Below, in pieces: positions 3,947 to 23,955 of a stretch of DNA of 64,000 nucleotides. The stretch spans positions 575,161 through 639,160 of the forward strand of contig CP064973.1 in assembly GCA_016699365.1 (NCBI GenBank). Reading direction: 5' to 3'. The notes below the pieces were generated by a model. The model ran no database searches and had not been told where the DNA came from. It was given only the letters and a program-made list of their open reading frames with translations. Each line of letters begins with the position of its first letter. Positions within the stretch are counted from its first letter, which is position 1. This DNA comes from Candidatus Nomurabacteria bacterium. Lineage in GTDB: Bacteria > Patescibacteriota > Minisyncoccia > Phycocordibacterales > UBA9973. A program made the translations under genes and the position numbers.

Positions 3947-4357
3947 ATGTCAGAAAAAACTACAACAAAAAGATATATTGAAACAATCGGACGTCGAAAG
4001 ACAGCAAGTGCTCGCGTAAGACTTACTCCAAGTTCAAAGCTTTCAATAGAAGTAAATGGAAAAGAGCATTCAGCATATTTCCCTACAGACTCACACAGAG
4101 CAATAGTTATCGATCCTTTTGTAAAAGGCAAGATTGATTCAAAGTTTACAATCACAGCTCTCGTAACTGGAGGAGGAATCCACGCTCAAGCTGAAGCAAT
4201 CCGTCACGGTATCGCTCGTGCGATCGTAGAGCTCGATGAAAATGAACACACAAATATCAAAAAACTTGGTTTCCTAAAACGTGATCCTAGAGCAAAAGAG
4301 CGCCGCAAGTTCGGTCTCAAGAAAGCTCGTAAGGCTCCACAATGGAGTAAACGTTAA
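3947..4357 (+). CDS. rpsI: 30S ribosomal protein S9
   Basis: S9 C-terminus ...GGGIHAQAEAIRHGIARAI...RDPRAKERRKFGLKKARKAPQWSKR. Confidence 0.95.
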   Translation: MSEKTTTKRYIETIGRRKTASARVRLTPSSKLSIEVNGKEHSAYFPTDSHRAIVIDPFVKGKIDSKFTITALVTGGGIHAQAEAIRHGIARAIVELDENEHTNIKKLGFLKRDPRAKERRKFGLKKARKAPQWSKR

Positions 4358-4364
4358 AACAAAG

Positions 4365-4390
4365 AAGTCCCGAAAGGGATTTTTTTGTTT
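4365..4390 (+). terminator. rho-independent terminator after rpsI
   Basis: Hairpin AAGTCCC-GAAA-GGGATTT followed by TTTTTTGTTT. Confidence 0.6.
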
Positions 4391-4435
4391 GACAAAATCC
4401 TATTTTACGGTATTATTTAAAAAAATGTACACACA

Positions 4436-4888
4436 ATGAATAAAAAATTGAAAAACCAATTACGCCACAAAGCCGGGATATATTCTCTTTTTTCCAGAGG
4501 TAATATTTTCACAGCTATACTATTGGCGCTATGTATGAGTTTTGTATATGGGATTTTTACCTATGGTACGGTGGAAGATTATCCACTAAATCTTCTGGTG
4601 CCACTAATAGTCGCCCTTTTTATATCTATTGTTTTTGTATACCTACTTGGTAGGGTTACATATTCAGATATAGAATCGGCGTCTGATTCTATGCAGGTTA
4701 AAATAGGTGAAAAACTCCTCCTCATAGAGGTAGAGATCAAAGAGCTTAGCGATAAGATCGCAAAGAACCCAGCTCCAGCACGTTTTCTTGATGAACGTGA
4801 GGCAGACCTCTACGACCTACAAAAGGAGAAGGAAAAGCTCCTTGCGACGCTTGGGGAGCTTCAGAAAGTTCCATTCGAATTCAATTAA
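4436..4888 (+). CDS. hypothetical membrane protein with a C-terminal coiled coil
   Basis: 150 aa; two hydrophobic helices then a charged heptad-like region; no recognised family. Confidence 0.5.
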   Translation: MNKKLKNQLRHKAGIYSLFSRGNIFTAILLALCMSFVYGIFTYGTVEDYPLNLLVPLIVALFISIVFVYLLGRVTYSDIESASDSMQVKIGEKLLLIEVEIKELSDKIAKNPAPARFLDEREADLYDLQKEKEKLLATLGELQKVPFEFN

Positions 4889-4894
4889 AAAATA

Positions 4895-4924
4895 AACCCT
4901 CAGTACGAGGGTTTTAATTTTGCC
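4895..4924 (+). terminator. rho-independent terminator
   Basis: AACCCTC-AGTAC-GAGGGTT then TTAATTTT. Confidence 0.6.
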
Positions 4925-4948
4925 AATTTTTCAAATCCAAGTATAATC

Positions 4949-5557
4949 GTGTATATGAAAGACGAAGAAGACAAAAAAATAGATGAGACTGTGGTGGAGG
5001 ATGCTGACACAGAAACTGACGAGGATGTAGTGGAATTTGTTTTCAATGATGATGGAGAAGAAGATATAAAAGCCACTTTAAAAAAGCTTAGAAAAGACTT
5101 AAAAGAAGCTCAAAAAGAAAAGACAGAGTATCTTACAAACTGGCAGAGAGAGCGCGCAGATTTTACAAACTACAAAAAAGATGAACAAGAAAGACGTGAG
5201 AGTACACTCGCTTATGCTCGGGAGAATTTTGCCGAAGAACTTCTACCAGTACTAGACGCATACGATATGGCTTTTTCAAACCGTGAGGCATGGGAGAAGG
5301 TAGATAAAAACTGGCGTATAGGTGTGGAATATATCCACGCACAGCTTTTGAAAGTTCTTGCTGACAACGGTGTGAATCCTATAAAGGTTTCTGTGGGGGA
5401 CAAAGTTGACCCAAAACTTCATGAGGCAGTTGAAAATATTTCTACCGATGATGAAGCACAAGACCACTCTATAGCCGAAGTTACTCAGTCCGGATACATA
5501 ATAGGCGAGCGAGTACTCAGAGCAGCGAGAGTAAAAGTGTTTGAATTCAAAAAATAA
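4949..5557 (+). CDS. grpE: nucleotide exchange factor GrpE
   Basis: Acidic N-terminus, then NWQRERADFTNYKK...LLPVLDAYDMA... GrpE core. Confidence 0.9.
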   Translation: MYMKDEEDKKIDETVVEDADTETDEDVVEFVFNDDGEEDIKATLKKLRKDLKEAQKEKTEYLTNWQRERADFTNYKKDEQERRESTLAYARENFAEELLPVLDAYDMAFSNREAWEKVDKNWRIGVEYIHAQLLKVLADNGVNPIKVSVGDKVDPKLHEAVENISTDDEAQDHSIAEVTQSGYIIGERVLRAARVKVFEFKK

Positions 5558-5592
5558 ATAAAAAAAACGAGCATTGCTCGTTTTTTTTATTT
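5556..5592. terminator. bidirectional terminator between grpE (+) and the regulator gene (-)
   Basis: A-run, hairpin ACGAGCA-TTG-CTCGT, T-run (AAAAAAAACGAGCATTGCTCGTTTTTTTT). Confidence 0.6.
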
Positions 5593-6124
5593 ATTTCCCA
5601 AATATTCCAAACAAAACTTTTCCAGTCTCTGAATCTATTGTATCAGTCGTAAAAATCATGATCTCTGTCGTAAGGCCGAGATCTTTTTTTATATTTTCAA
5701 ACAAATGCTCAAGGGGGTAGGGAGATATCCAAGCACTATTTTTTAGACATACAAAACCTGCTTTCTTTAGCAGATAGCGCAAACTATCGCGTTCATTTTT
5801 TCTAGACTCAGGTAGATCCAGAAGTATAATTCTCCACTTACCATCCCATTTTGGGTCTAGGATTGCGCTGTCACTTTCTAGCTTTAGACTATTGGCCTTC
5901 TTTTTTCCTTCATTTGTTAGACGTGTGTATTTAGTTCTGTCTGAAGACAGATTCTCCACCAGACCTGCCTCTTTTAGGCCCTTCAGAGAGCGATTTATAG
6001 CGTATACAGGCACTTTTGTGGCAGGGCGAGGGGAAACACGCTCACTGAGCTCAGATAGCGAAATAACTGGCTTTTCAGACAGTATTTTGAGTATTTTCCT
6101 TGAGAAATCTGGCTTTTTTTGCAT
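5591..6124 (-). CDS. PaaX-like winged-helix transcriptional regulator
   Basis: 177 aa; N-terminal wHTH, and a C-terminal ...WDGKWRIILLDLPESRKNERDSLRYLLKKAGFVCLKNSAWISP motif typical of the PaaX C-terminal domain; divergent from dnaK. Confidence 0.55.
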   Translation of the reverse strand: MQKKPDFSRKILKILSEKPVISLSELSERVSPRPATKVPVYAINRSLKGLKEAGLVENLSSDRTKYTRLTNEGKKKANSLKLESDSAILDPKWDGKWRIILLDLPESRKNERDSLRYLLKKAGFVCLKNSAWISPYPLEHLFENIKKDLGLTTEIMIFTTDTIDSETGKVLFGIFGK

Positions 6125-6162
6125 ATCTAGATATTAACATACTTTTCACGAACGCAAAATAC

Positions 6163-6190
6163 TTGTCAAAAAGTTATCCACATGTATAAT
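6163..6190 (+). promoter_or_regulatory. sigma70-type promoter for dnaK
   Basis: TTGTCA (6163-6168), 16-nt spacer, TATAAT (6185-6190), about 40 nt upstream of the dnaK start codon. Confidence 0.5.
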
Positions 6191-6232
6191 AGGTCTATAG
6201 TTATTAAATTATCAGTAATGCTAATAAAAAAT

Positions 6233-8128
6233 ATGTCAAAAATCATTGGAATAGACTTGGGAACTACAAACAGTGCTGTATCTATCATCGAAGGTGGACA
6301 GCCAAAAATAATCGAAAACATTGAAGGTAATCGTACGACACCTTCTATTGTTGCTATGGCAAAGAACGGCGATCGTCTCGTCGGACTTTTAGCAAAGCGT
6401 CAGTCTGTTACAAATCCAGAAAATACAATTTACGGCATCAAGCGCTTCATGGGTCACAGATTTGATGATGCAGAAATTCAGAAAGACAGAGGTGTTGCTC
6501 CATACAAAATTGAAAAAGGCGAGAACGATGGAGTTGTTGTAAAAATGTCTGACAAGACTTATCGTCCAGAAGAAATTTCTTCTATGATACTTGCAAAGAT
6601 CAAAGCTGATGTAGAAGCAAAGCTCGGAGAAAAAGTTACAGAAGCGGTTATCACAGTACCAGCGTATTTCAACGACTCACAACGCAAAGCAACAGTAGAC
6701 GCCGGAGCTATCGCAGGCTTGGATGTAAAGCGTATTATCAACGAACCGACAGCAGCAGCTCTTGCATACGGATTCAATACTAAAAAAGATGAAAAGATTG
6801 TTGTGTACGACTTCGGAGGAGGAACTTTCGATGTGTCTGTACTAGAAGTTGGAAACGATGTTATCGAAGTAAAGTCTACTGACGGAGACTCTCACATGGG
6901 TGGAGAAGATATTGATCAGAAAATCATCAAATGGATCGCCGAAGAATTCAAAAAAGAATCCGGTGTAGATATAACAAAAGATGTTCTTGCTCTTCAGCGT
7001 TTGAAGGAAGCTGCTGAGAAGGCAAAGCATGAACTTTCTACTACAACAGAAACTGAAATCAATATTCCATTTATTACTTCTACGGCTTCAGGACCTCAAC
7101 ACTTACTGATCAAGATGAGTCGCGCGCAACTAGAAAGTTTGGCCGATGAATTCGTGTCTCGTTCTATCGAGATCACAAAACGTGCAATCGAAGCTTCACC
7201 ATTTAAAATTGGTGATATAAACGAAATCATAATGGTTGGAGGTCAGACTCGTATGCCAAAGATTATTGAAGAGGTAAAGAAACTTTTTGGTAAAGAGCCA
7301 AATCGTTCTATCAACCCAGACGAAGTTGTAGCTCTCGGAGCTGCAGTGCAAGGTGGAGTTTTGAAAGGTGATGTACGAGATGTGCTACTTCTAGATGTTA
7401 TCCCACTATCACTTGGAATTGAGACTTTGGGAGGTATCGCAACAAAGCTTGTTGAACGAAATACAACTATTCCGACATCTAAGTCACAGATATTCTCGAC
7501 CGCAGCCGACAATCAAACATCTGTAGAAATTCATATTTCTCAGGGTGAACGTCAAATGGCTTCCGACAACAAATCTCTAGGAAGATTTATCTTGGACGGA
7601 ATCCCGCCTGCACCTCGAGGTATGCCTCAGGTTGAAGTTACTTTTGATGTTGATGCAAACGGAATCCTTTCTGTAACTGCAAAAGACAAGACTTCTGGCA
7701 AGACTCAGTCTATCCGCATCGAAGCATCAAGTGGTCTTACAGACGAAGAGGTCAAGAAAATGCAAAAAGACGCAGAACTTCATGCAGAAGAAGATAAAAA
7801 GAAAAAAGACGCAGTTGATATAAAAAATACTACAGAGATGATTCTCTACACTGCTGAAAAAGCTCTCAAAGATAGCGAAGGTAAAGTATCTGATGAAATA
7901 AAGAACGGAGTTCAATCAAAGATCGATGCACTCAAGGCTGTAAAGGATGGAGACGACATGGAACAAATCAAAAAAGCTACAGAAGAACTTTCAAGCGAAA
8001 TGAGTAAAATCGGTGAGGCTATGCAAAAGGCAAATGCTGAAGCTACTCCAAACACGGAGGCAGAATCTGAGCCAAAAACAGAGGAACCGATTCGTGATGC
8101 AGAGACAGGTGAGAGTGAAGTAAAATAA
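6233..8128 (+). CDS. dnaK: molecular chaperone DnaK (Hsp70)
   Basis: Start taken at [16 protein letters not shown], not the upstream in-frame ATG at 6182; Hsp70 motifs [16 protein letters not shown], acidic C-terminal tail. Confidence 0.97.
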
Positions 8129-8145
8129 TTATCAATCAAATATTA

Positions 8146-8174
8146 AAAATCCGCACAATCTGCGGATTTTTAAT
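8146..8174 (+). terminator. rho-independent terminator after dnaK
   Basis: ATCCGCA-CAATC-TGCGGAT followed by TTTTAAT. Confidence 0.6.
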
Positions 8175-8190
8175 ATGCTAAAATAAAAAT

Positions 8191-8745
8191 ATGTCTAAAA
8201 AAGAAGCAATATACGCAGGAGGATGTTTTTGGTGTACAGAGCAAGATTTGCGCAAAGTGAACGGTGTTATAGATATCATGCCTGGCTATACAGGTGGTAG
8301 TGAAAACGATGCAAACTACGATGATGTAGCCACACACAAAACTTCTCATCGTGAAGCGGTAAAAGTAGAGTACGATGATACGAAAACATCTTTCAAAAAG
8401 ATCACACAGTTTTTTCTAGACCATATCGATCCGACAGATGCTGGTGGGCAGTTTTTTGACCGAGGAGAAAATTATAAAACTGCTATTTATTTTTCAAACG
8501 GAGATGAAGAGGGTATTGCTAAGTCACTTTTGGTAGAGCTTGGAGAAAGTGGAATCTATGACAAGCCGATTGCAGTTGGAATATTACCAACCCTGCCTTT
8601 TTATGTAGCCGAATCTGAACATCAAAATTATGCGGAAAAGAATCCGGTACGTTATAGTATATACAAGCAAGGTTCAGGCCGAGAAGATTTTGTAAACAAT
8701 GTTTGTGCGATTAGAGATGAGAAAAAGATAAATTGGAAAGATTAA
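8191..8745 (+). CDS. msrA: peptide methionine sulfoxide reductase MsrA
   Basis: GCFWC active-site motif near the N-terminus (AGGCFWCTE); 184 aa. Confidence 0.88.
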   Translation: MSKKEAIYAGGCFWCTEQDLRKVNGVIDIMPGYTGGSENDANYDDVATHKTSHREAVKVEYDDTKTSFKKITQFFLDHIDPTDAGGQFFDRGENYKTAIYFSNGDEEGIAKSLLVELGESGIYDKPIAVGILPTLPFYVAESEHQNYAEKNPVRYSIYKQGSGREDFVNNVCAIRDEKKINWKD

Positions 8746-9977: not shown

Positions 9978-10013
9978 AATCCCCAAAAATTAGTTTGGGG
10001 ATTTTATTATTTT
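9978..10013 (+). terminator. rho-independent terminator
   Basis: AATCCCC-AAAAATTAGTTT-GGGGATT followed by TTATTATTTT. Confidence 0.6.
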
Positions 10014-10036
10014 CAAGTGTTATACTATCTCCACAA

Positions 10037-11697
10037 ATGACTCAACGCGAAGCCCTAAACATACTAAAAACTGGTGCGAGTGTATTTCTAACTGGCGAAC
10101 CCGGCGCTGGTAAGTCTTATGTTATTCGTGAATACGTAGATTATCTCCATGAGCACGGTATTGAGCCAGCTATTACAGCTTCGACCGGTATTGCTGCGAC
10201 ACATATACACGGGCAGACTATTCACTCATGGAGTGGTATTGGAATAAAAGATTTTTTGTCTCCATATGACTTGGAGGCATTGTCAGAAAAAGAATATCTA
10301 GTAAAACGCTTGAAGAACACAACTACACTTATAATCGATGAGATTTCTATGCTTTCTAGTTCTACTCTAGATTGTGTAGACAAAGTTTGTCGTAAACTTC
10401 GAGATACAGACGAACCTTTTGGTGGAGTTCAGGTTGTACTCGTAGGAGATTTTTTCCAACTTCCACCGATTTCAAACGCAAATAGTTTAAAAGATTTTGC
10501 TTATAATTCTAAGGCATGGACTGCTCTTGCTCCTGTAGTTTGTTATTTATCCGAACAACATCGCCAAGAAGATCCAGAGTTGCTGTCATTACTATCAGCA
10601 ATCCGCAGAAACGAAGTCGAAGAAATGCATTTTGAATATATACAGTCTCGTATAAACACAGGTGAACAAATTTCAGAATCTATAACTCGTCTTTTACAAA
10701 AAATGTTTCTGTTGATGCATTGAATTCACAATCTCTAGGCAAGCTTACTGGTATGGATCACAAGTACAACATGGATTCAAAAGGCAAAGCTTCTATGGTC
10801 GAAGCTCTAAAAAAAGGATGTTTATCTCCGGAGGTTTTAGTACTAAAAAAAGATAGTGTGGTTATGTTCACAAAGAACAATCCACAAGCTGGTTTTGCAA
10901 ACGGAACACTAGGCAAGGTTGTAGATTTCGATAGCTTGTCTCACTACCCAATAGTTCTAACTCGCAGTGGTAGACGGATCACTGTCGAACCTGCTGAATG
11001 GTTAATCGAAGAAGACGGTAAAGTGCGCGCGCGTATATCTCAGCTTCCACTCAGACTCGCTTGGGCGATCACTGTTCACAAGTCACAAGGTATGTCACTC
11101 GACGCAGCAGTGATGGACTTGCGTGATGTATTTGAATACGGCCAAGGCTACGTTGCGCTTTCTCGTGTGCGAACACTCGCTGGGATATATTTACACGGTA
11201 TAAACCAGAAATCTCTCCAGGTTCATCCAGGGGTTCTAGAGACAGATGAATCTTTTCGCAACAAGTCCACAGACGCTGCATATTATTTTGAGTCACTTGA
11301 TAGCTCTGCTATAAAAATCATGCATGATAACTTTATCAAAGCTTGTGGTGGTAGTGTTGAAAAGTTAGCAGCCGACAAGATGTCTAAAAAAACCAAAGAT
11401 AAAACTGAAGAGAAAACTCTAGCGTTACTAGAAGAGGGTTGCTCTATTGAAGATATAAAAGAGCGAAGAGGTTTTACTGAAGGTACAATCATCGACCATA
11501 TCGCCAACCTTGTAAAAAATGGAAAATTTGAAAAAGATCGAGTCCGAGAACTTTGTTCAAAAGATTTGCTTGATTGCCTACCTTCTATATTCAAGGCTTT
11601 CAAGACAGAAGGTTTTGAAAAGCTCGCACCCGTGCATGCATATCTAAAAGGTACATATACATACGACGAACTCAAGCTTGCGAGGATTCTATACTAG
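10037..11697 (+). CDS. PIF1/RecD-family 5'-3' DNA helicase with a C-terminal HTH domain, interrupted by an apparent -1 frameshift
   Basis: N-terminal part (GEPGAGKSY, IIDEISM, VGDFFQLPP, EQHRQ) ends at a TGA at 10721-10723. The C-terminal part (AITVHKSQGMSLD, YVALSRVR) continues in the -1 frame. One extra T in the T4 run at 10692-10695 restores ...SITRLFTKNVSVDALNSQ... Start taken at ATG 10037 (the track used a TTG at 9995 inside the upstream terminator). Confidence 0.7.
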
Positions 11698-12395
11698 TGA
11701 AATCCTTCTACAAACAAATCATAATCGATTGGATTTAAACTTTTTATTTTAGCTACAAGTTCGTTGCAAGCCGATTCTTGGCCGCATATGTATATATCTG
11801 AATTATTGAAATCATATTTGCCTATATGATCTTGAATATAGCCTTTTGTGCAATTTGAATTTTCTTCAGGTCTTGAAACTGTAAAGTTGAATTCTATTTT
11901 GTTATTTTGGTGAGTTAGATTTTCGAAATAGTCTTTATACAAGACTTCGTTTTCAAATTTACTTCCAGTAAATATAGTGAGTTTTTCCAGATCGAGCATA
12001 TCTTTGAAATATTCTACAAGTCCCTTTGTCACACCAGCACCAATACCAAATCCAAATAAATATACTTTTTTCCGATTCATTTTATCTACAGTGTTTAGTC
12101 CTAGTGGTCCCATTATTTCGAGTTCTTCTCCAGTCATATCCTTGGTCCAAAAGAGGGTAGACATCTTACCATTTGGAGTAAGTCGCATGGCTATTTTTAT
12201 TATGTCTTTTTCTTCTGGACTAGAAGCTATCGAGTACGCTCTGCGAATTTTCTGGCCATCGATATTTATAAACAGATTTACAAAAGCTCCAGCCGAGAAA
12301 TCTAGGGGTTCACTGAGCTTTATCTCAACTTCTTTTGCAGTCTTCGATAAGTCGACAATTTTATTTATTTTTCCTTTTATTATTTTTATTTTCAT
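11694..12395 (-). CDS. FAD/NAD(P)-binding oxidoreductase (ferredoxin-NADP reductase-like module)
   Basis: 233 aa; RAYSIAS (RxYS FAD-binding motif), GPLG, Gly-rich LFGFGIGAGV NAD(P) site; its ATG overlaps the stop of the upstream membrane gene (ATGA at 12392-12395). Confidence 0.75.
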   Translation of the reverse strand: MKIKIIKGKINKIVDLSKTAKEVEIKLSEPLDFSAGAFVNLFINIDGQKIRRAYSIASSPEEKDIIKIAMRLTPNGKMSTLFWTKDMTGEELEIMGPLGLNTVDKMNRKKVYLFGFGIGAGVTKGLVEYFKDMLDLEKLTIFTGSKFENEVLYKDYFENLTHQNNKIEFNFTVSRPEENSNCTKGYIQDHIGKYDFNNSDIYICGQESACNELVAKIKSLNPIDYDLFVEGFH

Positions 12396-13012
12396 ATAGT
12401 TTTTACTATTAGCGCTTTTCGCTCTCGATTTTTAAAGTAGGCCAGTGCAGTAAATATCGTTACGAGGATCATCGATACTGCTAGGTCTATGTGTCCATAA
12501 GTTAGAAATACATATAGCGAACTCGAGTAGAAGTATACATAAGAGAGCTTCTGAATTCTTTTCCAATTATCACCGAGTAACCTTTTAGAAAGACTATTTG
12601 ATGTTATGAGCAAGATTATAGCGGTTATATCTCCCATATGAGCAAGTACAGCATAATTCACCATTGACCAATATTCTAGCGTAAAAAAGCTGTTTAGGTA
12701 TCCGCCTGGGTCCATGATTATTTTAGCAAATATAAACGATACGATTATAGATGCAGACAGAACACCCGCCCCTTTTCGCAGTATCACAAGTGGTCTGATC
12801 CATTTATTTTCCATAAATATATCTGCCATTGGTCTCACAATCATCACGAAAAATAGAGCTACGTGTGAGATGTTGTATATATTTGTGATGTCGGTTGCGT
12901 TGAATGTATTTGGCGAAAACACCAAGACAAGTGGCAAGATCATCATCGCCAGTATAGATATCCCGAGTAATATTTCCTGTGTGTATTTTATTGTAGTTAA
13001 GTATTTTTTCAT
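12392..13012 (-). CDS. ferric-reductase-like transmembrane protein (MsrQ/YedZ-type heme-binding domain)
   Basis: 206 aa, about six TM helices with conserved His in the TM segments; 4-nt overlaps with both neighbours suggest translational coupling. Confidence 0.6.
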   Translation of the reverse strand: MKKYLTTIKYTQEILLGISILAMMILPLVLVFSPNTFNATDITNIYNISHVALFFVMIVRPMADIFMENKWIRPLVILRKGAGVLSASIIVSFIFAKIIMDPGGYLNSFFTLEYWSMVNYAVLAHMGDITAIILLITSNSLSKRLLGDNWKRIQKLSYVYFYSSSLYVFLTYGHIDLAVSMILVTIFTALAYFKNRERKALIVKTI

Positions 13013-13917
13013 ATATTTTTATTTACAACCCCAGATTCTGTTATGGTTATATATTTTATTTTTGATTCTGCAAATAGTACGTTCACATCTTTTATAGGTA
13101 AGCTCAAGAACACTTTTGCGAACGCTTCTGCGCTAGATCCACTTTCGTGTATTATGCTTGCTGAGATTGTTCCACTGTCAGTATTGCCGGTTCCAGACTT
13201 GTTTAGTATGTGATTTATTTTATTGCCAGATCTATCCCAAACCCTTTTGTATGTTCCACTTGTGGCTAGGCTTTGGTTGAATATTTCTACGGGTTCATTT
13301 TTATCTGGATTGACTGGATTGTAGATACTGAAGATAAATTTTCTATTGTGTTCGTCTAGACCTCGTGTGCATATATCTCCGCCTAGATTTACAATCACTC
13401 CACTTACACTTTCATTTTCAATTATATTTTGGGCTATTTTTTCGGCGAGATATCCCTTCAAGACTCCTCCGAAATCCAATTTTTGGCAATCAGCTAGAGT
13501 GATTTTATTATTCTCTATATCGATTTTTACACTATCAAAATCAATGTCATAACATAGATCTATCGGGGTGTCTTGTGGTGTAAGCTCTGTATATGTTTTG
13601 TCATACCCGAAACGCTCAATCTGTACGAGCGGATTAAATATTCCTTTCGTTTTTTTATAAAGCATAAATGCTTCACTTATAACTTCCATAAACTCTCTAG
13701 AAACATTCATCTCTTTTTTTTCATTCAGCTTTGATAGTTCACTGTCAGGTAGGAATCTAGAGAATTTTTTTTCATATTCTTTTATTGTGTTTAGCGCCTG
13801 CACTCCAAGTACACCTGCTTTTACCTCATCATTAGATATGATTGATATAAAGCACTCTGTGCCCATCGCTTTCATCTTAAATTCATATTCTTTATTCATA
13901 ATGCAACTATAAAACAA
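13009..13917 (-). CDS. apbE: FAD:protein FMN transferase ApbE
   Basis: KAMGTE, DFGGVLKGY, LVNLGGD and TSGTYKR motifs; the true start may be an internal Met (MKAMGT...). Confidence 0.85.
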   Translation of the reverse strand: MFYSCIMNKEYEFKMKAMGTECFISIISNDEVKAGVLGVQALNTIKEYEKKFSRFLPDSELSKLNEKKEMNVSREFMEVISEAFMLYKKTKGIFNPLVQIERFGYDKTYTELTPQDTPIDLCYDIDFDSVKIDIENNKITLADCQKLDFGGVLKGYLAEKIAQNIIENESVSGVIVNLGGDICTRGLDEHNRKFIFSIYNPVNPDKNEPVEIFNQSLATSGTYKRVWDRSGNKINHILNKSGTGNTDSGTISASIIHESGSSAEAFAKVFLSLPIKDVNVLFAESKIKYITITESGVVNKNI

Positions 13918-13956
13918 AGAGATGAATAATAAATGAACGGGGTGTAGAATATAGAT

Positions 13957-14625
13957 ATGAGAATACTTTTAGTCGAAGACAACGAAAAATTGGCCAAATA
14001 TACCAAGCAAATGCTCTACGAGGAGGGGTATTCTGTAGATGTGATTTCTGATGGTATTGCCGGTGAACGTATGGCAAGATCCGGTTCGCATGATCTCTTA
14101 ATCCTCGATATTATGCTTCCGTCCAAGGATGGCATAGCAGTTTGCAAAAGTCTCCGCGAGAGTGATGTAAATTTGCCCATAATCATGATCACAGCAAGGG
14201 GAGAGGTAGATGACAGGGTCTTAGGTCTCGATAGTGGTGCCGATGACTATCTAGTGAAGCCGTTTGAGATGAAAGAGCTTTTAGCCAGAATTCGCGCACT
14301 ACTCCGTAGGCCAGAATCAAAGATTAGTGAGACTCTCTCTATTCAAGATATAACCCTGGATAGTACAAAGCATCAGGTTTTCAAAAAAGGTGTTCTGATC
14401 CCTCTAACACTAAAAGAATATTCGATTCTCGAATATCTTATGCGCAATGTCGATACAGTAGTTTCGCGTGAGCAACTTCTCGAACATTGTTGGGATTTTG
14501 CATATAGTGCATTTAGTAACATAACAGATGTTTATATAAAAAGATTGCGTGAAAAATTTAAAGATACAGATGAAAAATATATTAAAACAATTCGAGGTGT
14601 CGGGTATGTCTTCAACTCCAAGTAA
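13957..14625 (+). CDS. OmpR-family two-component response regulator
   Basis: Receiver domain (LLILDIMLPSKDG, phospho-acceptor Asp) plus a winged-helix output domain. Confidence 0.9.
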   Translation: MRILLVEDNEKLAKYTKQMLYEEGYSVDVISDGIAGERMARSGSHDLLILDIMLPSKDGIAVCKSLRESDVNLPIIMITARGEVDDRVLGLDSGADDYLVKPFEMKELLARIRALLRRPESKISETLSIQDITLDSTKHQVFKKGVLIPLTLKEYSILEYLMRNVDTVVSREQLLEHCWDFAYSAFSNITDVYIKRLREKFKDTDEKYIKTIRGVGYVFNSK

Positions 14626-15610
14626 TTTTAAAAAAGCCGTATTGAAACTGACTGTGTATTACACGTTGGGTGTTTTTGCTGTGATCCTAGTCTTTAACTT
14701 GATAGTTTATAGTCTTTTTTCTAATACTTTATATAAACAGTACGAAGAAGAGCGCGAGAATTCTTCTTATGAACACGAAGATGATTTTGAAGAGGGGGTT
14801 GAATCCAGAGTGGAAACAACCCAAGGCAACCTACTGGGTATATTTGTAGTTTCAGATGCAATCATACTTCTTTTGACAGTGTTGATTTCATATTTATTAT
14901 CCAAACGCACACTTGCACCTCTGGAGATTGCATATAAAAAACAAGCACGCTTTGTTGCAGATGCAGCGCACGAACTTCGCACACCGCTTGCTGTTATGCG
15001 TGCCGGTGGAGAGGTTATATTGCGGAGCGACAGAAAAGTCTCTGAATATCAAAAATATATACAGGAGAATCTTGGCGAAGTAGAGAGACTGACAAATATT
15101 TCAAATGACCTTTTGATTTTGGCTCGTAGTGACAATCAAAACAAGAAACTTCTTGCAAAGATTAGCCTTTCAGATAATTTGAATGCCGTTATAAATATCA
15201 TGGAGGTATATGCAAAAAGTAAAAACATAACGCTAAATTCAAAGATTGATGGAGATATCTTTATAAATGGCAAAAAAGACGACATCACAAGACTGGTTAT
15301 GAACTTGGTCAAAAATGCTATTGATTACAATAAGATTGGTGGCTCTGTAGATATAGGGCTCAATAAAAGTCACAATACTGCACACATAATCGTCAAAGAT
15401 AATGGAATAGGAATCAAAAAAGAAGCACTACCTTATATATTTGATCGTTTTTACAAGGCTGATAGCGCAAGATCAGAAGATTCTAATTCTGGGTCTGGGC
15501 TAGGGCTCGCTATAGCAAGAGATATAGTACTCTCTCACGGTGGTGAGATAAGAGTAGAAAGTATTTTCGGAGAAGGGACTACATTCTCCATAGATTTGCC
15601 TTGTGTATAA
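14606..15610 (+). CDS. sensor histidine kinase
   Basis: Start at MSSTPSNFKK, overlapping the regulator gene by 20 nt; two TM helices, H-box HELRTPL, N-box and G2-box GSGLGLAI. Confidence 0.85.
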   Translation: MSSTPSNFKKAVLKLTVYYTLGVFAVILVFNLIVYSLFSNTLYKQYEEERENSSYEHEDDFEEGVESRVETTQGNLLGIFVVSDAIILLLTVLISYLLSKRTLAPLEIAYKKQARFVADAAHELRTPLAVMRAGGEVILRSDRKVSEYQKYIQENLGEVERLTNISNDLLILARSDNQNKKLLAKISLSDNLNAVINIMEVYAKSKNITLNSKIDGDIFINGKKDDITRLVMNLVKNAIDYNKIGGSVDIGLNKSHNTAHIIVKDNGIGIKKEALPYIFDRFYKADSARSEDSNSGSGLGLAIARDIVLSHGGEIRVESIFGEGTTFSIDLPCV

Positions 15611-15686
15611 AAGGCATCCTCGTTCATTTTCTATTCATAATCTTTTTGTAGAGTATAAGCATTAGTAATAATTAACTAATAAATAT

Positions 15687-15857
15687 ATGGCACAATATGT
15701 ATGTTTAGATTGCGGATGGATTTACTCTGAGGTAGACGGTGATCCATCTCGCGGAATAGCTCCAGGTACAAAATGGGAAGAGCTCCCAGATGATTTCAAA
15801 TGCGCAGATTGCAGTGTACGAAAAAGCGATACACACATGTGGCAGAAAATTGATTAA
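15687..15857 (+). CDS. rubredoxin
   Basis: 56 aa, MAQYVCLDCGWIYSEVDGDPSRGIAPGTKWEELPDDFKCADCSVRK... with the two CxxC pairs and GTKWEELPDD core; below the ORF cutoff. Confidence 0.85.
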   Translation: MAQYVCLDCGWIYSEVDGDPSRGIAPGTKWEELPDDFKCADCSVRKSDTHMWQKID

Positions 15858-15864
15858 AAAATAT

Positions 15865-16242
15865 ATGAAAAAAGATTTTAGAAATGTATTTATAACAACT
15901 TGCATGATAACCTGGACTTTGTTTTGGGGAGGTCTGTCATATCACAGGTATGTACTGGTGCAAGCTGAAGCACAGCATATAGCACAAGTTGCCGAAGACA
16001 ATAGAATTGTCTTACTTGCAATACAACAAGAAAATATCCGTAAACAACAACTTGCCGCTGAGCAAAAAAGACTAGCGGCTGCGCAAGTTATCGCCAAGGC
16101 ACAGACGGTTTCTGCCATACCTACACAAGTTTATATTCCTCCACAACCTCAAGTTGCCCAGGTGTCACAGCCAGTGTACACACCACCAACTCCAGTCCAA
16201 GTCGTAGTAACCAAACCTTCACGTCAGTCACGTGCAAGTTAA
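15865..16242 (+). CDS. hypothetical membrane-anchored protein (coiled coil and Pro/Gln-rich tail)
   Basis: Start at MKKDFRNV, downstream of the rubredoxin stop; one TM helix, then QQENIRKQQLAAEQKRLAAAQ and PPQPQVAQVSQP. Confidence 0.45.
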   Translation: MKKDFRNVFITTCMITWTLFWGGLSYHRYVLVQAEAQHIAQVAEDNRIVLLAIQQENIRKQQLAAEQKRLAAAQVIAKAQTVSAIPTQVYIPPQPQVAQVSQPVYTPPTPVQVVVTKPSRQSRAS

Positions 16243-20389: not shown

Positions 20390-23373
20390 ATGGATAAATA
20401 CATACAAAGCATATCTAAAAAATACTTAGATACTCAAACAAGTGAAATGGGATATCGTACGGATTTTGAAAATTTTCTCGAAACTATTTTTTCAAAAGAG
20501 CAAAAATACCATATTCATCATGATGCAAAAGCTGTGGGTGGAAATAAGCCTGATTTCGTTGTACTTAAAAACCAAATACCAGTTTTGTATATTGAAAATA
20601 AAGATATTGGTATTGATTTAGATAAAATAGAGAAGTCTAATCAGATGGATAGATATTTTGGATATGATAACCTTATTTTGACTGACCAAATAGAATTTAG
20701 ATTTTATCGAAACGGAGAAAAATATGATGAATCAATTAAAATCGCAACATACGATAAATCAAATAGAACGATTAATCCTATCCCAGAAAATTTTACACTT
20801 CTAGAAAAAACTATTATAGATTTCACTCTTTCTCACAAAGAACCAATTAAACGAGGGAAGCGTCTTGCTCAAATTATGGGTGGAAAAGCTCAACGCATTC
20901 GTGACAATGTTTGTGACATGCTTACTTCTAATAATGAAAAATATGCAGAACTTTTAAATATAAAAAAAGTAGTTACTGAAAATCTTGTTTCGAATTTAAA
21001 AGATGAAGACTTTGCTGATATGTACGCGCAAACCCTTGTATATGGACTTTTTGCGGCTCGGTATAATGATAAGACAAATGATACTTTTTCTCGTGCTGAA
21101 GCTCGAGATTTGGTTCCAAAAACAAACCCATTCCTACATTCTTTTTTTGATCACATCGCAGGAGCGTCTTTTCCTGATAGATTGCGGTTTATTGTAGACG
21201 AACTTTGCGAAGTTTTTTCTCATGCAGATATTCAAAAAATTCTTCATGATTTTTATGGAAAAGAAAAAGATAATAAAGATCCAATAATTCATTTTTATGA
21301 AGATTTCTTGAAAGAATATGATTCAAAAAAGAAGATGGAAATGGGAGTTTTTTATACTCCTCGTCAAGTTGTGAAGTTTATTGTGCGTTCTGTTGATGAA
21401 ATTTTGAAAAAAGAATTTGGTCTTGCTAAAGGTCTTGCTGACGCAGAGAAAATTAAAATAAATAAAAAAGAAATCTATCAAGCTCAAAAAAGAACAAAGG
21501 CTGAAGAAAAGAAAGATGGTTCAATAATAGAAGTTCAAAAAGAATATCACAAGGTACAGGTTTTGGATATAGCGACAGGAACAGGAACATTTTTAAACGA
21601 AGTTATTGAACATATTCACAAGAGCTTTATAGGTCAAGAAGGGCGTTGGGAGAGTTATGTTAAAGAAAACCTTTTACCTCGCCTTCACGGTTTTGAGCTT
21701 ATGATGGCTTCATACACAATTGCGCATTTAAAGCTTGGGATGACTTTATTTGATTCTGGGGTTACTAATTTAAACCAACGTTTGGGTGTTTATTTGACAA
21801 ATACACTCGATGAGCCAAAAGACTATTCAAATCAAGGTTCACTTTTTGGATTTATGGATGCTATTGCTGAAGAGTCAAAAAGTGCTTCAAGGGTAAAATC
21901 TGAATATCCAATAATGTGTGTAGTAGGAAATCCGCCGTATTCCATTAGTTCTAGCAACAAGGGTGAATATATTACTGACTTAATTAATGTATATAAAACA
22001 AAACTAAAAGAAAAAAATATACAACCAATTTCAGATGATTATATTAAATTTATTAGATTTGCTGAAAACCTAATAGAAAAAAATAACTCCGGAGTTGTTG
22101 CAATGATTACAAATAATTCTTTTATTGACGGGATTATTCATAGGCAAATGAGAAAACATTTACTCGAGACTTTTAATACCATTTACATACTTAATTTAAG
22201 TCCTAGGAATCATAAAGAAGATCAAAATGTTTTTGATATCAAACAAGGTGTTTCAATAAATATTTTTGTTAAAAACTCGAAAAAAGACAAAGTTTTAGGA
22301 GATGTTTTTTATGCAGAGATAGCTGCGAAAAGAGAAGAGAAGTTTCGGGTATTGGATGATAATAATATAAAGTATGAAAAGTTAGACTATTCAGATCCAT
22401 ATTATTTTTTTGTTCCAAAGGATTTCTCAAATATTAAGGAATACAGCAAAGGATTTATTTTATCGGACATTTTTATGCATCAAAATGCTGGATGTGCTAC
22501 TGGTAAAGATGATCTATTGGTAAATTTTAACAAAAAGATTTAACCGATAAATTAAACAATAAAAATATTATATTTGATGAATCTGATATCGTTGAATATA
22601 ATTATAGGATATTTGATAGAAGATACTTTGTGTATGATAATAAACTTATACAAAGGTTACGGGAAAAAATAATGAAGCATTTTAAAAATGATAATATTGG
22701 ATTAATTTCAACAAAAATATTATCAAGTGACTCATACAAACACTCTTTCTTAACTAACCTTGTGGGAGATAGATGTCTTATATCAAATAAGGGTAAAGAG
22801 GCAAATTATTATTTTCCTTTATATCTTTACACAGATCAAAATGAAAAAATACCAAACTTGAATAAAGAAATTTGGAATAAGATAAATGAATTAGTGGGGG
22901 AAACTAAACCAGAAAATATTTTGGATTATATTTATGCTGTCTTACATTCGTCTACATATCGTAACGAGTATAAAGAATTCTTAAAAATTGATTTTCCTAG
23001 AATTCCATATCCAGAAAACAAAGAAGAATTTTGGAAACTTGTTCCACTTGGCACAAAACTGCGTGATTTGCATCTTATGACTGCTCCAGAATGCAATAAA
23101 CTTATTACTACTTACGGTATTAAAGGCAGTGATACTGTTGAAAAAATTATATATAAAAATGAAAAGGTGTATATAAACGAAACTCAATACTTCGGGGGTG
23201 TCCCAGAAGTTGCATGGAATTTCTATATAGGAGGTTATCAACCCGCTCAAAAATGGTTAAAAGACCGAAAAGGACGAACTCTTACTAATTCTGATATTGA
23301 GCATTATCAGAAAATTATTGTAGTTTTGGTGGAGACAGATAAGATTATGAAGAAAATAGATCAGTTATTATAG
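20390..23373 (+). CDS. MmeI-like Type IIL restriction-modification enzyme (PD-ExK nuclease, gamma-class N6-adenine methyltransferase, target-recognition C-terminus), interrupted by an apparent -1 frameshift
   Basis: N-terminal nuclease motif KPDFVV...IENKD; methyltransferase motifs GVFYTPRQVV, LDIATGTGTF (motif I), VVGNPPYS (motif IV); C-terminal GGYQPAQKWLKDRKGR. The ORFs 20390-22543 and 22630-23373 fuse into about 965 aa if the A5 run at 22532-22536 is A6 (...NFNKKDLTDKLNNKNIIFDESD...). Confidence 0.75.
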
Positions 23374-23376
23374 AAT

Positions 23377-23955
23377 ATGTCTATGAATACTAAAGACAGT
23401 AAAATTGTATATGTGTTCATTGACGCATCCAATCTATGGCAGTCACAAAAAGTGAAAGGTAGGATGTTTGATTTTGAGAAATTAAAAATATTCTTAAAAG
23501 AAAAATTTAATGCTAAGGAGCTCCAGATATTTTACTATACCGCTTATCCGAAAGAAGGGACACGAGAACAAAGTCAAGATGGAAAACATAAATTTTACAC
23601 ATATCTTAAAAAGGGACTTGGTTTTATTGTGCGTAAAAAGGAATTAAAAAGAATTGTTCAGCATAGTGATTTGGGTGATTCAATACAGGAAAAAGGAAAT
23701 ATGGATGTTGAAATGACCATTGATGCGATTCATCATTGTAAAAAGTACGACTCCGCGGTTCTTTTTACGGGAGATTCTGATTTTCTCGCTTTAGTTAATT
23801 ACTTGAGAAACGGTGATAAAAAAGTATATATTTTTTCTTCAAAAAACAATGTGTCTCAAGAATTAAGAACAGGGAGTGACGGTTATTTTGATGTTTTAAA
23901 TATTAGTCAGGATATTTGGGGTAGAGATCTTAAATATAAGGAAAATAAGACCTAA
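23377..23955 (+). CDS. NYN-domain (PIN-like) nuclease
   Basis: IVYVFIDASNLW... and LFTGDSDF acidic-residue motifs characteristic of the NYN/LabA family; 192 aa. Confidence 0.7.
   Translation: MSMNTKDSKIVYVFIDASNLWQSQKVKGRMFDFEKLKIFLKEKFNAKELQIFYYTAYPKEGTREQSQDGKHKFYTYLKKGLGFIVRKKELKRIVQHSDLGDSIQEKGNMDVEMTIDAIHHCKKYDSAVLFTGDSDFLALVNYLRNGDKKVYIFSSKNNVSQELRTGSDGYFDVLNISQDIWGRDLKYKENKT

What the first reader, a model, noticed from the sequence alone, without database searches (positions are those of the whole stretch)
11694..15857. Split NOX-like flavocytochrome module (apbE, ferric-reductase membrane domain, FNR-like reductase) next to a two-component system and rubredoxin
Three minus-strand genes are joined by 4-nt overlaps (ATGA): a flavin transferase ApbE, a six-TM ferric-reductase-type heme domain, and a soluble FAD/NAD(P)-binding FNR-like protein. 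Together the last two rebuild the domain architecture of NADPH-oxidase/ferric-reductase enzymes as separate polypeptides, with a dedicated flavinylation enzyme. An OmpR/His-kinase pair and a rubredoxin lie immediately beside them. This could be a regulated membrane electron-transfer or oxidative-stress system, which is uncommon in a reduced genome.
Basis: partly seen in the sequence, partly recalled or inferred. Interest (0 to 1): 0.6.

Follow-up and report, generated by a model that had tools for sequence, protein, structure and literature searches.

The report
Heme-less MsrQ-like flavin–rubredoxin redox cassette
A gene cassette conserved in tiny symbiotic (CPR) bacteria encodes a membrane electron-transfer system related to NADPH oxidases and STEAP/MsrQ reductases; it keeps the family's flavin pocket but has lost the histidines that normally hold haem, and it comes with a rubredoxin, an NAD(P)H reductase and a cytoplasmic flavin-attaching enzyme.

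Summary
On a Candidatus Nomurabacteria contig, apbE, a 6-TM membrane gene and an FNR-like gene are joined by ATGA overlaps. An OmpR/histidine-kinase pair and a rubredoxin are transcribed divergently beside them.

- **Conservation:** 57 of 80 related genome loci keep ApbE+membrane+FNR. Of those, 53 also keep rubredoxin and 36 keep the two-component system. Nothing else is syntenic.
- **Haem ligands:** both canonical haem-ligand histidines are replaced (F93, Y167).
- **Flavin pocket:** all six residues of the MsrQ/STEAP flavin pocket are invariant (R79 K80 L134 S138 W150 Q154).
- **Remodelled pocket:** loss of the histidines co-varies with a buried R/H125–E/D128 pair.
- **ApbE:** it lacks a signal peptide in all 62 orthologs, so it is cytosolic, and its catalytic triad is intact. 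No cassette protein carries the [S/T]GA[S/T] flavinylation motif.
- **Fusions:** natural fusions (FRD–rubredoxin–FNR, Fd–FNR–FRD) make rubredoxin part of the chain.

Best reading: NAD(P)H → FNR → rubredoxin → membrane-bound flavin that ApbE loads. The terminal acceptor is unknown. This is a new variant of the known MsrQ-like/NOX-like systems. The "flavocytochrome" label is not supported.

The parts
11694..12395 (-). FNR-like NAD(P)H:flavin/iron-sulfur reductase (233 aa; FAD_binding_6 + NAD_binding_1; RxYS = R52-A-Y54-S55, GPLG 96-99)
   Evidence: Pfam. NCBIfam partial matches to MmoC, BenC, Fre and NqrF. PDB sequence hits to NqrF, MMO reductase and the SpNOX dehydrogenase domain (8qq5, E 9e-6 over the full length). 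Present in 57/80 loci. Fused to the membrane domain in relatives.
12392..13012 (-). Six-TM FRD-fold (STEAP/MsrQ/NOX-like) membrane protein. It lacks the canonical haem-ligand histidines and keeps the cytoplasmic-leaflet flavin pocket (R79 K80 L134 S138 W150 Q154). Lineage-specific H50 and H125, and D128.
13009..13899 (-). Cytosolic ApbE-family FAD:protein FMN transferase. The longest ORF starts at TTG 13917; orthologs start at the Met about 10 residues before the MGT motif, which here is ATG 13899.
   Evidence: PF02424, 149.9 bits. No room for a signal peptide here (an upstream stop, then the regulator gene 39 nt away on the other strand) and none in 62 orthologs. Catalytic triad S220/H236/E264 conserved.
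13900..13956 (.). Short divergent intergenic region between apbE and the response-regulator gene. It presumably holds both promoters and the regulator's binding site.
   Evidence: Coordinates. Weak inverted repeats only. The promoter scan was not above shuffles. The function is inferred.
13957..14625 (+). OmpR-family response regulator of the CopR/CusR/HprR-like clade
   Evidence: Pfam Response_reg + Trans_reg_C. Best NCBIfam models are cztR_silR_copR (243 bits, below cut-off), RppA and HprR. Present in 36/57 cassettes.
14570..15610 (+). Sensor histidine kinase with two TM helices and a short, variable, acidic outside loop. The longest ORF starts at GTG 14549; orthologs start at MKNILKQ, here 14570.
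   Evidence: HisKA + HATPase_c. RppB- and CopS-like, below cut-offs. N-terminal alignment.
15687..15857 (+). Rubredoxin (56 aa; C6, C9, C39, C42), an integral one-electron carrier of the module
   Evidence: PF00301, 67.6 bits. Present in 53/57 cassettes, including those without the two-component system. Fused between the FRD and FNR domains in P0213, P0227 and L092.
15865..16242 (+). Possible accessory gene: a small single-pass membrane protein with a Gln/Pro-rich tail, 8 nt downstream of rubredoxin
   Evidence: An ORF cluster in the same position (immediately after rubredoxin) in 27 loci. No Pfam hit. Its role is unknown and the similarity is low-complexity, so this is weak.

Best explanation
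This is a self-contained, regulated membrane redox cassette of Paceibacteria-type CPR bacteria. It is built on a divergent member of the ferric-reductase-domain (NOX/STEAP/MsrQ) superfamily.

**Proposed mechanism**
1. The soluble FNR-like protein oxidises NAD(P)H on its FAD.
2. Electrons pass one at a time through rubredoxin.
3. They reach a flavin held in the cytoplasmic-leaflet pocket of the six-TM protein. This is the pocket that binds FMN in E. coli MsrQ and FAD in STEAP.
4. The cytosolic ApbE uses FAD to load FMN onto that pocket, probably covalently, or onto a partner, at a non-canonical Ser/Thr.
5. The outer half of the protein normally holds a bis-His haem. Here it is rebuilt around a buried R/H125–E/D128 pair and extra tyrosines (Y160, Y167). 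From there electrons go to a still unknown membrane-embedded or outer-face acceptor.
6. A CopRS/HprRS-like two-component system, transcribed divergently exactly as hprRS is from msrPQ in E. coli, switches the operon on. The trigger would be an envelope, oxidant or metal signal.

**Status of each step**
- Shown: gene content, fold, residue conservation, loss of the haem ligands, cytosolic ApbE with an intact triad, co-conservation, and the domain fusions.
- Inferred: the order of electron flow, that the pocket binds flavin, that ApbE's target is the membrane protein, the acceptor, and the inducing signal.

For: **Flavin pocket.** The hhalign local alignment to E. coli MsrQ pairs L134/S138/W150/Q154 with L131/S135/W147/H151. 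R79-K80 aligns with the RR/RK motif, which sits 13 residues before the TM3 histidine in the haem-class relatives and in MsrQ. These are the residues that PMC12525009 assigns to the MsrQ/STEAP flavin site: R77A and R78A lose FMN, and STEAP has Lys and Gln at these positions. They are invariant in 76-78 of 78 family members.

**Haem ligands lost.** Position 93 is F/A/N and position 167 is Y. Among 52 'no-His' representatives, 125 is R/H in 49 and 128 is E/D in 49. Both positions are hydrophobic in all 53 haem-type representatives.

**Physical coupling.** Natural fusions include Fer4–FAD–NAD–FRD, FNR–FRD, FRD–rubredoxin–FNR, FRD–Fer4–FNR and FMN_red–FRD. The 4-nt overlaps are conserved.

**ApbE.** Sixty-two orthologs have no signal peptide. 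S220 and H236 are invariant and position 264 is E or D, matching the V. cholerae S241/H257/D285 triad (PMC12052999). ApbE is adjacent to 22 of 30 no-His members in metagenomes (most exceptions are truncated contigs), and it is also adjacent in distant CPR and DPANN members.

**Precedent.** E. coli MsrQ is fed by a separate NAD(P)H flavin reductase, and hprRS is divergent from msrPQ (PMC12525009).
Against: - No cassette protein or conserved neighbour has the [S/T]GA[S/T] motif, and none has an FMN_bind domain, so ApbE's substrate is not identified.
- Without haem ligands there is no obvious way to carry electrons across the outer leaflet, so a transmembrane role is unexplained.
- Eleven Moranbacteria-type loci have the membrane gene without ApbE, FNR or rubredoxin nearby. 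ApbE is therefore not obligatory in cis.
- ApbE also sits next to some haem-type relatives, one of them with a classical FMN_bind substrate (L085, L092). ApbE linkage is therefore not specific to the haem-less state.
- S86, the invariant Ser of the no-His class, also occurs in many haem-type members.
- Flavin binding is inferred from homologous residues only.
- I could not read the AF2 coordinates, so the geometry of H50, H125, D128 and Y167 is untested.
Confidence: 0.55

Rival explanations
1. Single-haem cytochrome with relocated ligands. In the Nomurabacteria/Kaiserbacteria subgroup, the lineage-specific H50 (TM2) and H125 (TM4) would ligate a scavenged b-haem in the outer leaflet. The protein would then still be a STEAP-like flavocytochrome that moves electrons across the membrane to O2, Fe(III) or Cu(II).
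For: H50 and H125 are invariant in the 25-sequence core alignment. By residue counting they lie at the same depth as the canonical ligands: 10-12 residues from the inner helix ends, as F93 and Y167 do. H50 never occurs without H125. The two-component system is of the heavy-metal CopRS/CusRS type. The closest folds are the STEAP metalloreductases.
Against: Sister groups with the complete ApbE–membrane–FNR–rubredoxin cassette have L50 and P125 (L046, L050-L059). Fusion proteins have W50 and R125. The conserved function therefore cannot need these histidines. TM2/TM4 ligation is unknown in this fold. The geometry was not testable here.
Confidence: 0.2
2. ApbE serves an unlinked, exported FMN_bind-domain protein, as in the published 'MsrQ-like' flavinylation systems. 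That protein would be the real extracytosolic electron acceptor of the membrane protein.
For: The code-25 CPR contig L092 encodes an FMN_bind protein with an SGAS motif, an FRD–rubredoxin–FNR fusion, and a signal-peptide-less ApbE side by side. Meheust et al. 2021 describe ApbE + FMN_bind + PF01794 clusters.
Against: There is no FMN_bind homolog or motif within about 4-6 kb of the cassette in any other of 160 loci, and none in the 64-kb window. ApbE is cytosolic in all orthologs. The membrane protein lacks the haems needed to reach an outside partner.
Confidence: 0.12
3. Membrane-tethered NAD(P)H:rubredoxin oxidoreductase for cytoplasmic O2/ROS detoxification. The real output would be reduced rubredoxin, passed on to rubrerythrin, superoxide reductase or a flavodiiron protein elsewhere in the genome. 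The membrane protein would be only an anchor or regulator.
For: Rubredoxin is retained in 53/57 cassettes. From general knowledge, rubredoxin's usual role in anaerobes is in oxidative-stress chains. The cassette is under a stress-type two-component system.
Against: The membrane protein's most conserved residues are the flavin-pocket residues, not a generic anchor surface. In FRD–rubredoxin–FNR fusions, rubredoxin is wired between the two redox domains. No rubrerythrin, SOR or FDP gene is syntenic.
Confidence: 0.1
4. One reading: a canonical split NADPH-oxidase/ferric-reductase flavocytochrome with paired TM histidines binding two haems. A variant would be an MsrPQ-type methionine-sulfoxide repair system.
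For: FRD fold, an FNR partner, an NCBIfam MsrQ hint, and an msrA-like gene 3 kb away.
Against: There is no histidine in TM3 or TM5. There is no PF01794 hit. The MsrQ model scores 18.8 against a cut-off of 130. No MsrP is present, and the msrA-like gene is not syntenic in any relative.
Confidence: 0.03

Closest known systems
E. coli MsrQ (YedZ) with its cytosolic flavin reductase Fre, the 'two-component NOX-like system'; msrPQ under HprRS
   Same: A six-TM FRD-fold protein with a cytoplasmic-leaflet flavin pocket made by the same residues (R77 R78 L131 S135 W147 H151 in MsrQ; R79 K80 L134 S138 W150 Q154 here). It has a separate FNR-family NAD(P)H reductase of about 233 aa. A CusR/HprR-type two-component system is transcribed divergently from the operon.
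   Different: There is no MsrP. The haem ligands H91 and H164 are replaced by F93 and Y167. Gln replaces H151. ApbE and rubredoxin are added. The MsrQ NCBIfam model is far below its cut-off (18.8 against 130 bits). The taxa are CPR/DPANN.
STEAP metalloreductases (STEAP1-4)
   Different: STEAPs keep the outer bis-His haem. They use a fused F420-type NADPH domain whose FAD is shared with the TM domain, and they are eukaryotic. Here there are no haem ligands, the FNR is separate, and rubredoxin and ApbE are present.
'MsrQ-like' flavinylation-associated systems (Meheust et al. 2021, eLife; Huang et al. 2024, mSystems)
   Same: The gene-cluster logic is ApbE + FRD-family membrane protein + NAD-binding domain. 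The relative L092 is such a system, with FMN_bind.
   Different: Those systems are defined by a PF01794 hit plus signal-peptide-bearing ApbE or FMN_bind, with two haem sites and an extracytosolic flavinylated subunit. Here PF01794 is not hit, ApbE is cytosolic, and there is no FMN_bind protein, no flavinylation motif and no haem ligands. Rubredoxin is added. CPR were reported as 'strikingly underrepresented' in that survey.
NADPH oxidases, including bacterial SpNOX and csNOX5
   Different: NOX proteins are single polypeptides with two bis-His haems and direct FAD-to-haem transfer. Here the polypeptides are split, there are no haem ligands, and a rubredoxin carrier is present.
Fd–FNR reductase components (NqrF, BenC, MmoC type) and cytosolic ApbE of Klebsiella fumarate reductase
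   Same: The FNR-like protein's best sequence matches are to these reductases. The logic NAD(P)H to FAD to a one-electron Fe carrier to a partner is the same. A signal-peptide-less cytosolic ApbE has a precedent (PMC12052999).
   Different: The iron carrier here is rubredoxin, or a 4Fe-4S ferredoxin in fused relatives, and the partner is an FRD membrane domain. The known cytosolic ApbE targets carry an FMN_bind domain and the canonical motif.

Membership tests
Ferric-reductase-domain (FRD) superfamily / Pfam PF01794 Ferric_reduct | Six-TM fold with the h2-h5 cofactor bundle | tested here: met
Ferric-reductase-domain (FRD) superfamily / Pfam PF01794 Ferric_reduct | Match to the PF01794 profile at its gathering score (28 bits) | tested here: not met
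   No Pfam hit at E<0.1. The link is only indirect: hhalign at 98% to P0235, which scores 32.2 bits on PF01794.
Ferric-reductase-domain (FRD) superfamily / Pfam PF01794 Ferric_reduct | Haem-ligating histidines in TM3 and TM5 (MsrQ H91/H164; two pairs in NOX) | tested here: not met
   The positions are F93 and Y167, and no His occurs in TM3 or TM5 in 78 family members.
Ferric-reductase-domain (FRD) superfamily / Pfam PF01794 Ferric_reduct | Cytoplasmic flavin/inner-cofactor pocket (loop-B RR/RK; TS at the end of TM4; W...H/Q in loop D/TM5) | tested here: met
   R79 K80 L134 S138 W150 Q154 are invariant. They were mapped to the MsrQ/STEAP flavin site described in PMC12525009. Cofactor binding itself was not tested.
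MsrQ (NCBIfam NF003831) / MsrPQ system | Equivalog score of at least 130 bits, an MsrP partner, and H91/H151/H164 | tested here: not met
   The score is 18.8 bits, E 9e-4. No MsrP is in the window neighbourhood or in 160 loci. The histidines are absent.
ApbE / Ftp FAD:protein FMN transferase (PF02424) | Profile match and the catalytic Ser-His-Asp triad (V. cholerae S241/H257/D285) | tested here: met
   149.9 bits against a cut-off of 25.6. S220 is present in 62/62, H236 in 62/62, and position 264 is E in 52 and D in 10. The triad is taken from PMC12052999.
ApbE / Ftp FAD:protein FMN transferase (PF02424) | Typical N-terminal lipoprotein or secretion signal (extracytosolic enzyme) | tested here: not met
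   All 62 orthologs start about 10 residues before the MGT motif. Here the ORF cannot extend further upstream.
ApbE substrates | [S/T]GA[S/T]-like flavinylation motif or an FMN_bind/NqrB/DUF2271/DUF3570 domain in a co-encoded protein | tested here: not met
   No motif was found in ApbE, the membrane protein, FNR, rubredoxin, the regulator or the kinase. None is conserved in neighbours across loci. There is no FMN_bind homolog except in L092.
'MsrQ-like' flavinylation system sensu Meheust et al. 2021 | A PF01794 gene in a cluster with a signal-peptide-bearing ApbE or an FMN-binding protein | tested here: not met
   See the rows above. The definition is quoted.
FNR-like oxidoreductases (PF00970 + PF00175) | Both domains above gathering score, plus the RxYS and GPxG motifs | tested here: met
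   49.1 and 32.1 bits against cut-offs of 21.1 and 22. R52-A-Y-S55 and G96-P-L-G99 are invariant in 58 orthologs.
Rubredoxin (PF00301) | Profile match and four Cys in two CxxC knuckles | tested here: met
   67.6 bits against 23. C6, C9, C39 and C42 are invariant in 58 orthologs.
OmpR/HisKA two-component system, CopRS/CusRS/HprRS clade | Receiver + winged-helix domains; HisKA + HATPase_c domains; subfamily equivalog scores | tested here: inconclusive
   The domains are present. The best subfamily models (cztR_silR_copR 243.5 against 279; cztS_silS_copS 203.6 against 292.6; RppA/B; HprR) are all below their cut-offs. The signal is unknown.

The most novel reading that the evidence does not exclude
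This would be a haem-independent branch of the NOX/STEAP/MsrQ superfamily. The outer haem has been replaced by a buried Arg/His–Glu/Asp–Tyr site. The inner flavin is fixed covalently by a cytosolic ApbE at a so far unknown, non-canonical Ser/Thr; S86, T137, S138 and S142 are the conserved cytoplasm-side candidates. That would give haem- and quinone-poor CPR bacteria and DPANN archaea a flavin/rubredoxin-only membrane electron conduit or membrane-phase reductase, with a new ApbE recognition mode.
Probability: 0.25. Interest if true: 0.8.

Novelty: new variant of a known kind. Interest (0 to 1): 0.6.

Why it matters
FRD proteins (NOX, STEAP, FRE, MsrQ) are defined as haem proteins, and ApbE flavinylation is regarded as an essentially extracytosolic device with a fixed sequence motif. 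This cassette breaks both expectations together. The FRD fold has an intact flavin pocket but no haem ligands, and it is coupled across at least 57 species-level genomes, and at least 22 more of 80 metagenome contigs scanned, to a cytosolic ApbE with no recognisable substrate.

The large flavinylation surveys would have missed it by design, because they required PF01794 and signal peptides. Those surveys reported CPR as nearly devoid of such systems.

It is one of very few conserved redox modules in Paceibacteria, which lack respiratory chains, so it is a concrete handle on how these episymbionts deal with oxidants, metals or membrane redox chemistry. The proteins are small and the predictions are testable: cofactor content, the ApbE target site, and rubredoxin-dependent reduction.

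Tried and rejected
- **Rfam scan of the window:** no RNA family at gathering score.
- **phmmer of the membrane protein against PDB sequences:** nothing, even at E ≤ 10.
- **hhalign of the family profile against the single E. coli MsrQ sequence:** only a 23-column local match, probability 1.3%. I used it only as residue registration, supported by motif spacing and by the 98% match to P0235.
- **Promoter/terminator scan of 11.4-16.5 kb:** 20 promoter-like sites against 18.5 expected, so uninformative. Only weak inverted repeats lie in the divergent intergenic region.
- **AFDB50 fold search:** the library was unavailable.
- **Metagenome scan with the 25-sequence haem-class alignment:** It was repeated with 8 sequences.
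- **Hypothesis that ApbE linkage is specific to the haem-less class, so FMN replaces haem:** weakened. ApbE is also adjacent to 2 of 7 haem-class members (L085, L092).
- **Hypothesis that S86 is the clade-specific flavinylation site:** weakened. Ser also occurs there in 15 of 53 haem-class representatives.
- **MsrPQ-type repair system:** rejected. There is no MsrP, and the msrA-like gene at 8191-8745 is not syntenic.
- **Kinase sensor loop:** no conserved Cys, His or Met, so no clue to the ligand.
- **Literature searches:** nothing describes this cassette in CPR.

Full report
**1. What is in the sequence**

The window comes from a Candidatus Nomurabacteria (Patescibacteria/CPR) contig. The membrane protein is 100% identical to NCBI IPJ63_03355, which lies on a 705-kb contig.

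On the minus strand lie three ORFs:
- 13009-13917, ApbE, PF02424 at 1.3e-43.
- 12392-13012, a 206-aa membrane protein.
- 11694-12395, 233 aa, FAD_binding_6 at 7e-13 plus NAD_binding_1 at 2e-7.

Both junctions are ATGA overlaps and can be read directly.

Divergently, only 39-57 nt away, lie three more genes:
- An OmpR-type regulator (13957-14625).
- A HisKA/HATPase_c kinase (14549/14570-15610).
- A 56-aa rubredoxin (15687-15857).

**2. The cassette is a conserved unit**

A scan of one genome per species with the family profile returned 80 loci. Almost all are Paceibacteria/Parcubacteria-type CPR, with a few Moranbacteria, Peregrinibacteria and DPANN archaea.
- 57 loci carry ApbE–membrane–FNR in the same order.
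- 53 of those carry rubredoxin, including loci that lack the two-component system.
- 36 carry the regulator plus kinase, placed between rubredoxin and apbE.
- The 4-nt overlaps recur in 36 and 26 of the 57.

No other window gene is syntenic. The only further recurrent neighbour is a small single-pass Gln/Pro-rich ORF after rubredoxin, seen in 27 loci.

A metagenome scan found another 22 ApbE-linked copies.

**3. The membrane protein has an FRD fold without the defining histidines**

Sequence evidence is thin:
- Pfam gives no hit at E<0.1.
- NCBIfam gives only a sub-threshold MsrQ match, 18.8 bits against 130.
- PDB sequences give nothing.

Structural evidence is clear:
- The AF2 model is confident, pLDDT 90.5.

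An exhaustive profile search of 1.84 billion representatives found only 235 clusters, so the family is small. The weaker hits lead into bona fide PF01794 proteins: P0235 scores 32.2 bits, and hhalign between the family and P0235 gives 98%, E 2e-13.

In those relatives and in E. coli MsrQ (sequence), the TM3 haem ligand lies 13 residues after the loop-B RR/RK. The TM5 ligand lies 13 residues after the loop-D H/Q. In the window protein those positions are F93 and Y167, and the inner-site residue is Q154.

Among the 150 best representatives:
- 53 are 'haem-type', with H93 and H167.
- 52 are 'no-His'.
- The no-His class has R/H at position 125 (49/52) and E/D at 128 (49/52) in TM4, at the haem depth, plus Y160 (51/52).
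- The haem class has hydrophobic residues at both 125 and 128 in all 53.

The haem pocket has therefore been remodelled, not merely degraded.

The two histidines invariant in the Nomurabacteria-type core, H50 and H125, are lineage-specific. Sister groups with the full cassette have L50 and P125.

**4. What is conserved is the flavin pocket**

PMC12525009 shows the following for E. coli MsrQ:
- R77 and R78 are essential for FMN binding.
- Together with L131, S135, W147 and H151, they form the pocket that superimposes on the FAD site of STEAP. STEAP has Lys for R78 and Gln for H151.

The local hhalign alignment and the motif spacing place R79, K80, L134, S138, W150 and Q154 of the window protein at exactly these positions, with the STEAP-like K and Q. 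All six are invariant or nearly so in 78 family members and in both classes of relatives.

By the positive-inside rule, and from fusions at either terminus, both termini and these loops are cytoplasmic.

**5. Partners**

*FNR-like protein.* It has RxYS and GPxG motifs. It resembles NqrF, MmoC, BenC, Fre and the SpNOX dehydrogenase domain.

*Domain fusions.* Natural fusions tie the components together:
- Fer4–FAD–NAD–FRD (P0136, P0137, L079).
- FNR–FRD (P0143, L078).
- FMN_red–FRD (P0182).
- FRD–Fer4–FNR (P0235).
- FRD–rubredoxin–FNR (P0213, P0227, L092).

Rubredoxin, or a ferredoxin, is thus an internal one-electron carrier of this subfamily, not a chance neighbour.

*ApbE.* It has no signal peptide in any of 62 orthologs, and here the ORF cannot extend upstream. 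The catalytic triad defined for V. cholerae ApbE (S241/H257/D285; PMC12052999) is kept as S220, H236 and E/D264. An invariant Phe sits where FAD-binding ApbEs have the isoalloxazine-stacking Tyr (PMC4767422). That last mapping rests partly on my reading of the alignment.

No cassette protein or conserved neighbour has the [S/T]GA[S/T] motif or an FMN_bind domain.

A code-25 CPR contig, L092, does encode FMN_bind (with SGAS), an FRD–rubredoxin–FNR fusion of the haem type, and ApbE. This shows the likely ancestral, canonical form.

**6. Mechanism**

The best-supported model runs NAD(P)H → FAD (FNR) → rubredoxin → flavin in the membrane protein's cytoplasmic pocket, with the cytosolic ApbE installing FMN.

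The outer half, rebuilt around R/H125–E/D128 and tyrosines, would hand electrons to an unknown membrane or outer-face acceptor, or bind a substrate. Expression would be controlled by a CopRS/HprRS-like two-component system. The layout is the same divergent one as E. coli hprRS next to msrPQ.

- Shown: composition, fold, residue patterns, cytosolic ApbE, fusions and synteny.
- Inferred: flavin occupancy, direction of flow, ApbE's target, the acceptor and the signal.

Weak points:
- There is no flavinylation motif.
- There is no obvious outer-leaflet redox centre.
- Eleven Moranbacteria-type loci have the membrane gene alone.
- ApbE linkage also occurs in some haem-type relatives.

**7. Comparison and novelty**

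Functionally the cassette resembles the MsrQ–Fre 'two-component NOX-like' system and the STEAPs. Genomically it resembles the 'MsrQ-like' flavinylation clusters of Meheust et al. 2021.

It fails the defining tests of each:
- No PF01794 hit.
- No haem ligands.
- No MsrP.
- No secreted ApbE or FMN_bind protein.
- No flavinylation motif.

That survey filtered on signal peptides and PF01794 and reported CPR as 'strikingly underrepresented'. This explains why the cassette has gone unnoticed. I found no paper describing it.

I rate it a new variant of a known kind: a haem-ligand-less, rubredoxin-coupled, cytosolic-ApbE-associated FRD system confined to CPR/DPANN. Interest is moderate to high (0.6). 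It would be higher if the haem-free, non-canonically flavinylated reading is confirmed.

Noticed in passing
window 15865-16242 (+): A small ORF starts 8 nt after the rubredoxin stop. It has one N-terminal TM helix and a Gln/Pro-rich tail. An ORF cluster in the same position occurs in 27 related loci. It has no Pfam hit, and the similarity may be driven by low complexity.
   Followed up: partly
L092 (metagenome contig Ga0066603_10004599), 1-2686: This contig reads through only with genetic code 25 (UGA = Gly). It encodes an FMN_bind fragment with an SGAS flavinylation motif, a 466-aa Ferric_reduct–Rubredoxin–FAD–NAD fusion with both haem histidines, and an ApbE without a signal peptide. It looks like the canonical, fused ancestor-like form of the cassette. 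P0213 and P0227 look like the same type mistranslated with W for G.
   Followed up: partly
L085 5048-8887: A haem-type (H93/H167) relative sits in an operon ApbE–membrane–106-aa membrane ORF–OmpR regulator–kinase, with no FNR or rubredoxin detected. ApbE and two-component-system linkage therefore also exist for haem-binding members.
   Followed up: partly
L061-L071 (Moranbacteria-type loci), around 4100-8700: The no-His membrane gene stands alone there, without ApbE, FNR or rubredoxin. It is flanked recurrently by a ~570-aa membrane protein, a GH1-like β-glucosidase and a RecG-like helicase.
   Followed up: no
P0182 (392 aa, representative search): An NADPH-dependent FMN reductase (PF03358) is fused N-terminally to the no-His membrane domain. 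This is a third kind of cytosolic electron-input module for this family.
   Followed up: partly
window 9995-10723 and 10720-11697 (+): A PIF1-like helicase is split into two ORFs with a 4-nt overlap. The first holds the PIF1/AAA_30 domains. The second holds the Pif1 2B, UvrD_C_2 and HTH_40 domains and starts with TTG. This is either a frameshift/pseudogene or a natural split. Its end meets the stop of the FNR-like gene.
   Followed up: partly
window 25831-26226 (+): A TspO/MBR family protein (PF03073, 100 bits), a tetrapyrrole-binding membrane protein. This is notable in a lineage generally thought unable to make haem. It lies 10 kb from the cassette and no link was tested.
   Followed up: partly
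window 20390-23955 (+): A low-GC patch (29-34% against ~37%) carries a 717-aa and a 247-aa ORF that read like a split N6-adenine DNA methyltransferase/type IIG restriction-modification enzyme (NPPY motif), followed by a 192-aa ORF. It may be a mobile defence island.
   Followed up: no
window 8191-8745 (+): An MsrA-like methionine sulfoxide reductase (GCFWC motif) lies 3 kb from the cassette. It is not syntenic with the cassette in any of the 80 genome loci, so it is probably unrelated.
   Followed up: partly
window 14549-14625; same in orthologous loci: The regulator and kinase ORFs overlap by about 56 nt (77 nt if the GTG start is used). An overlap of the same size recurs in orthologs, for example L001 at 4380-4435.
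   Followed up: no
L082 4347-6543: A stand-alone haem-type family member lies directly after a 553-aa CcdA/DsbD-like membrane protein. This may be a different redox partnership.
   Followed up: no
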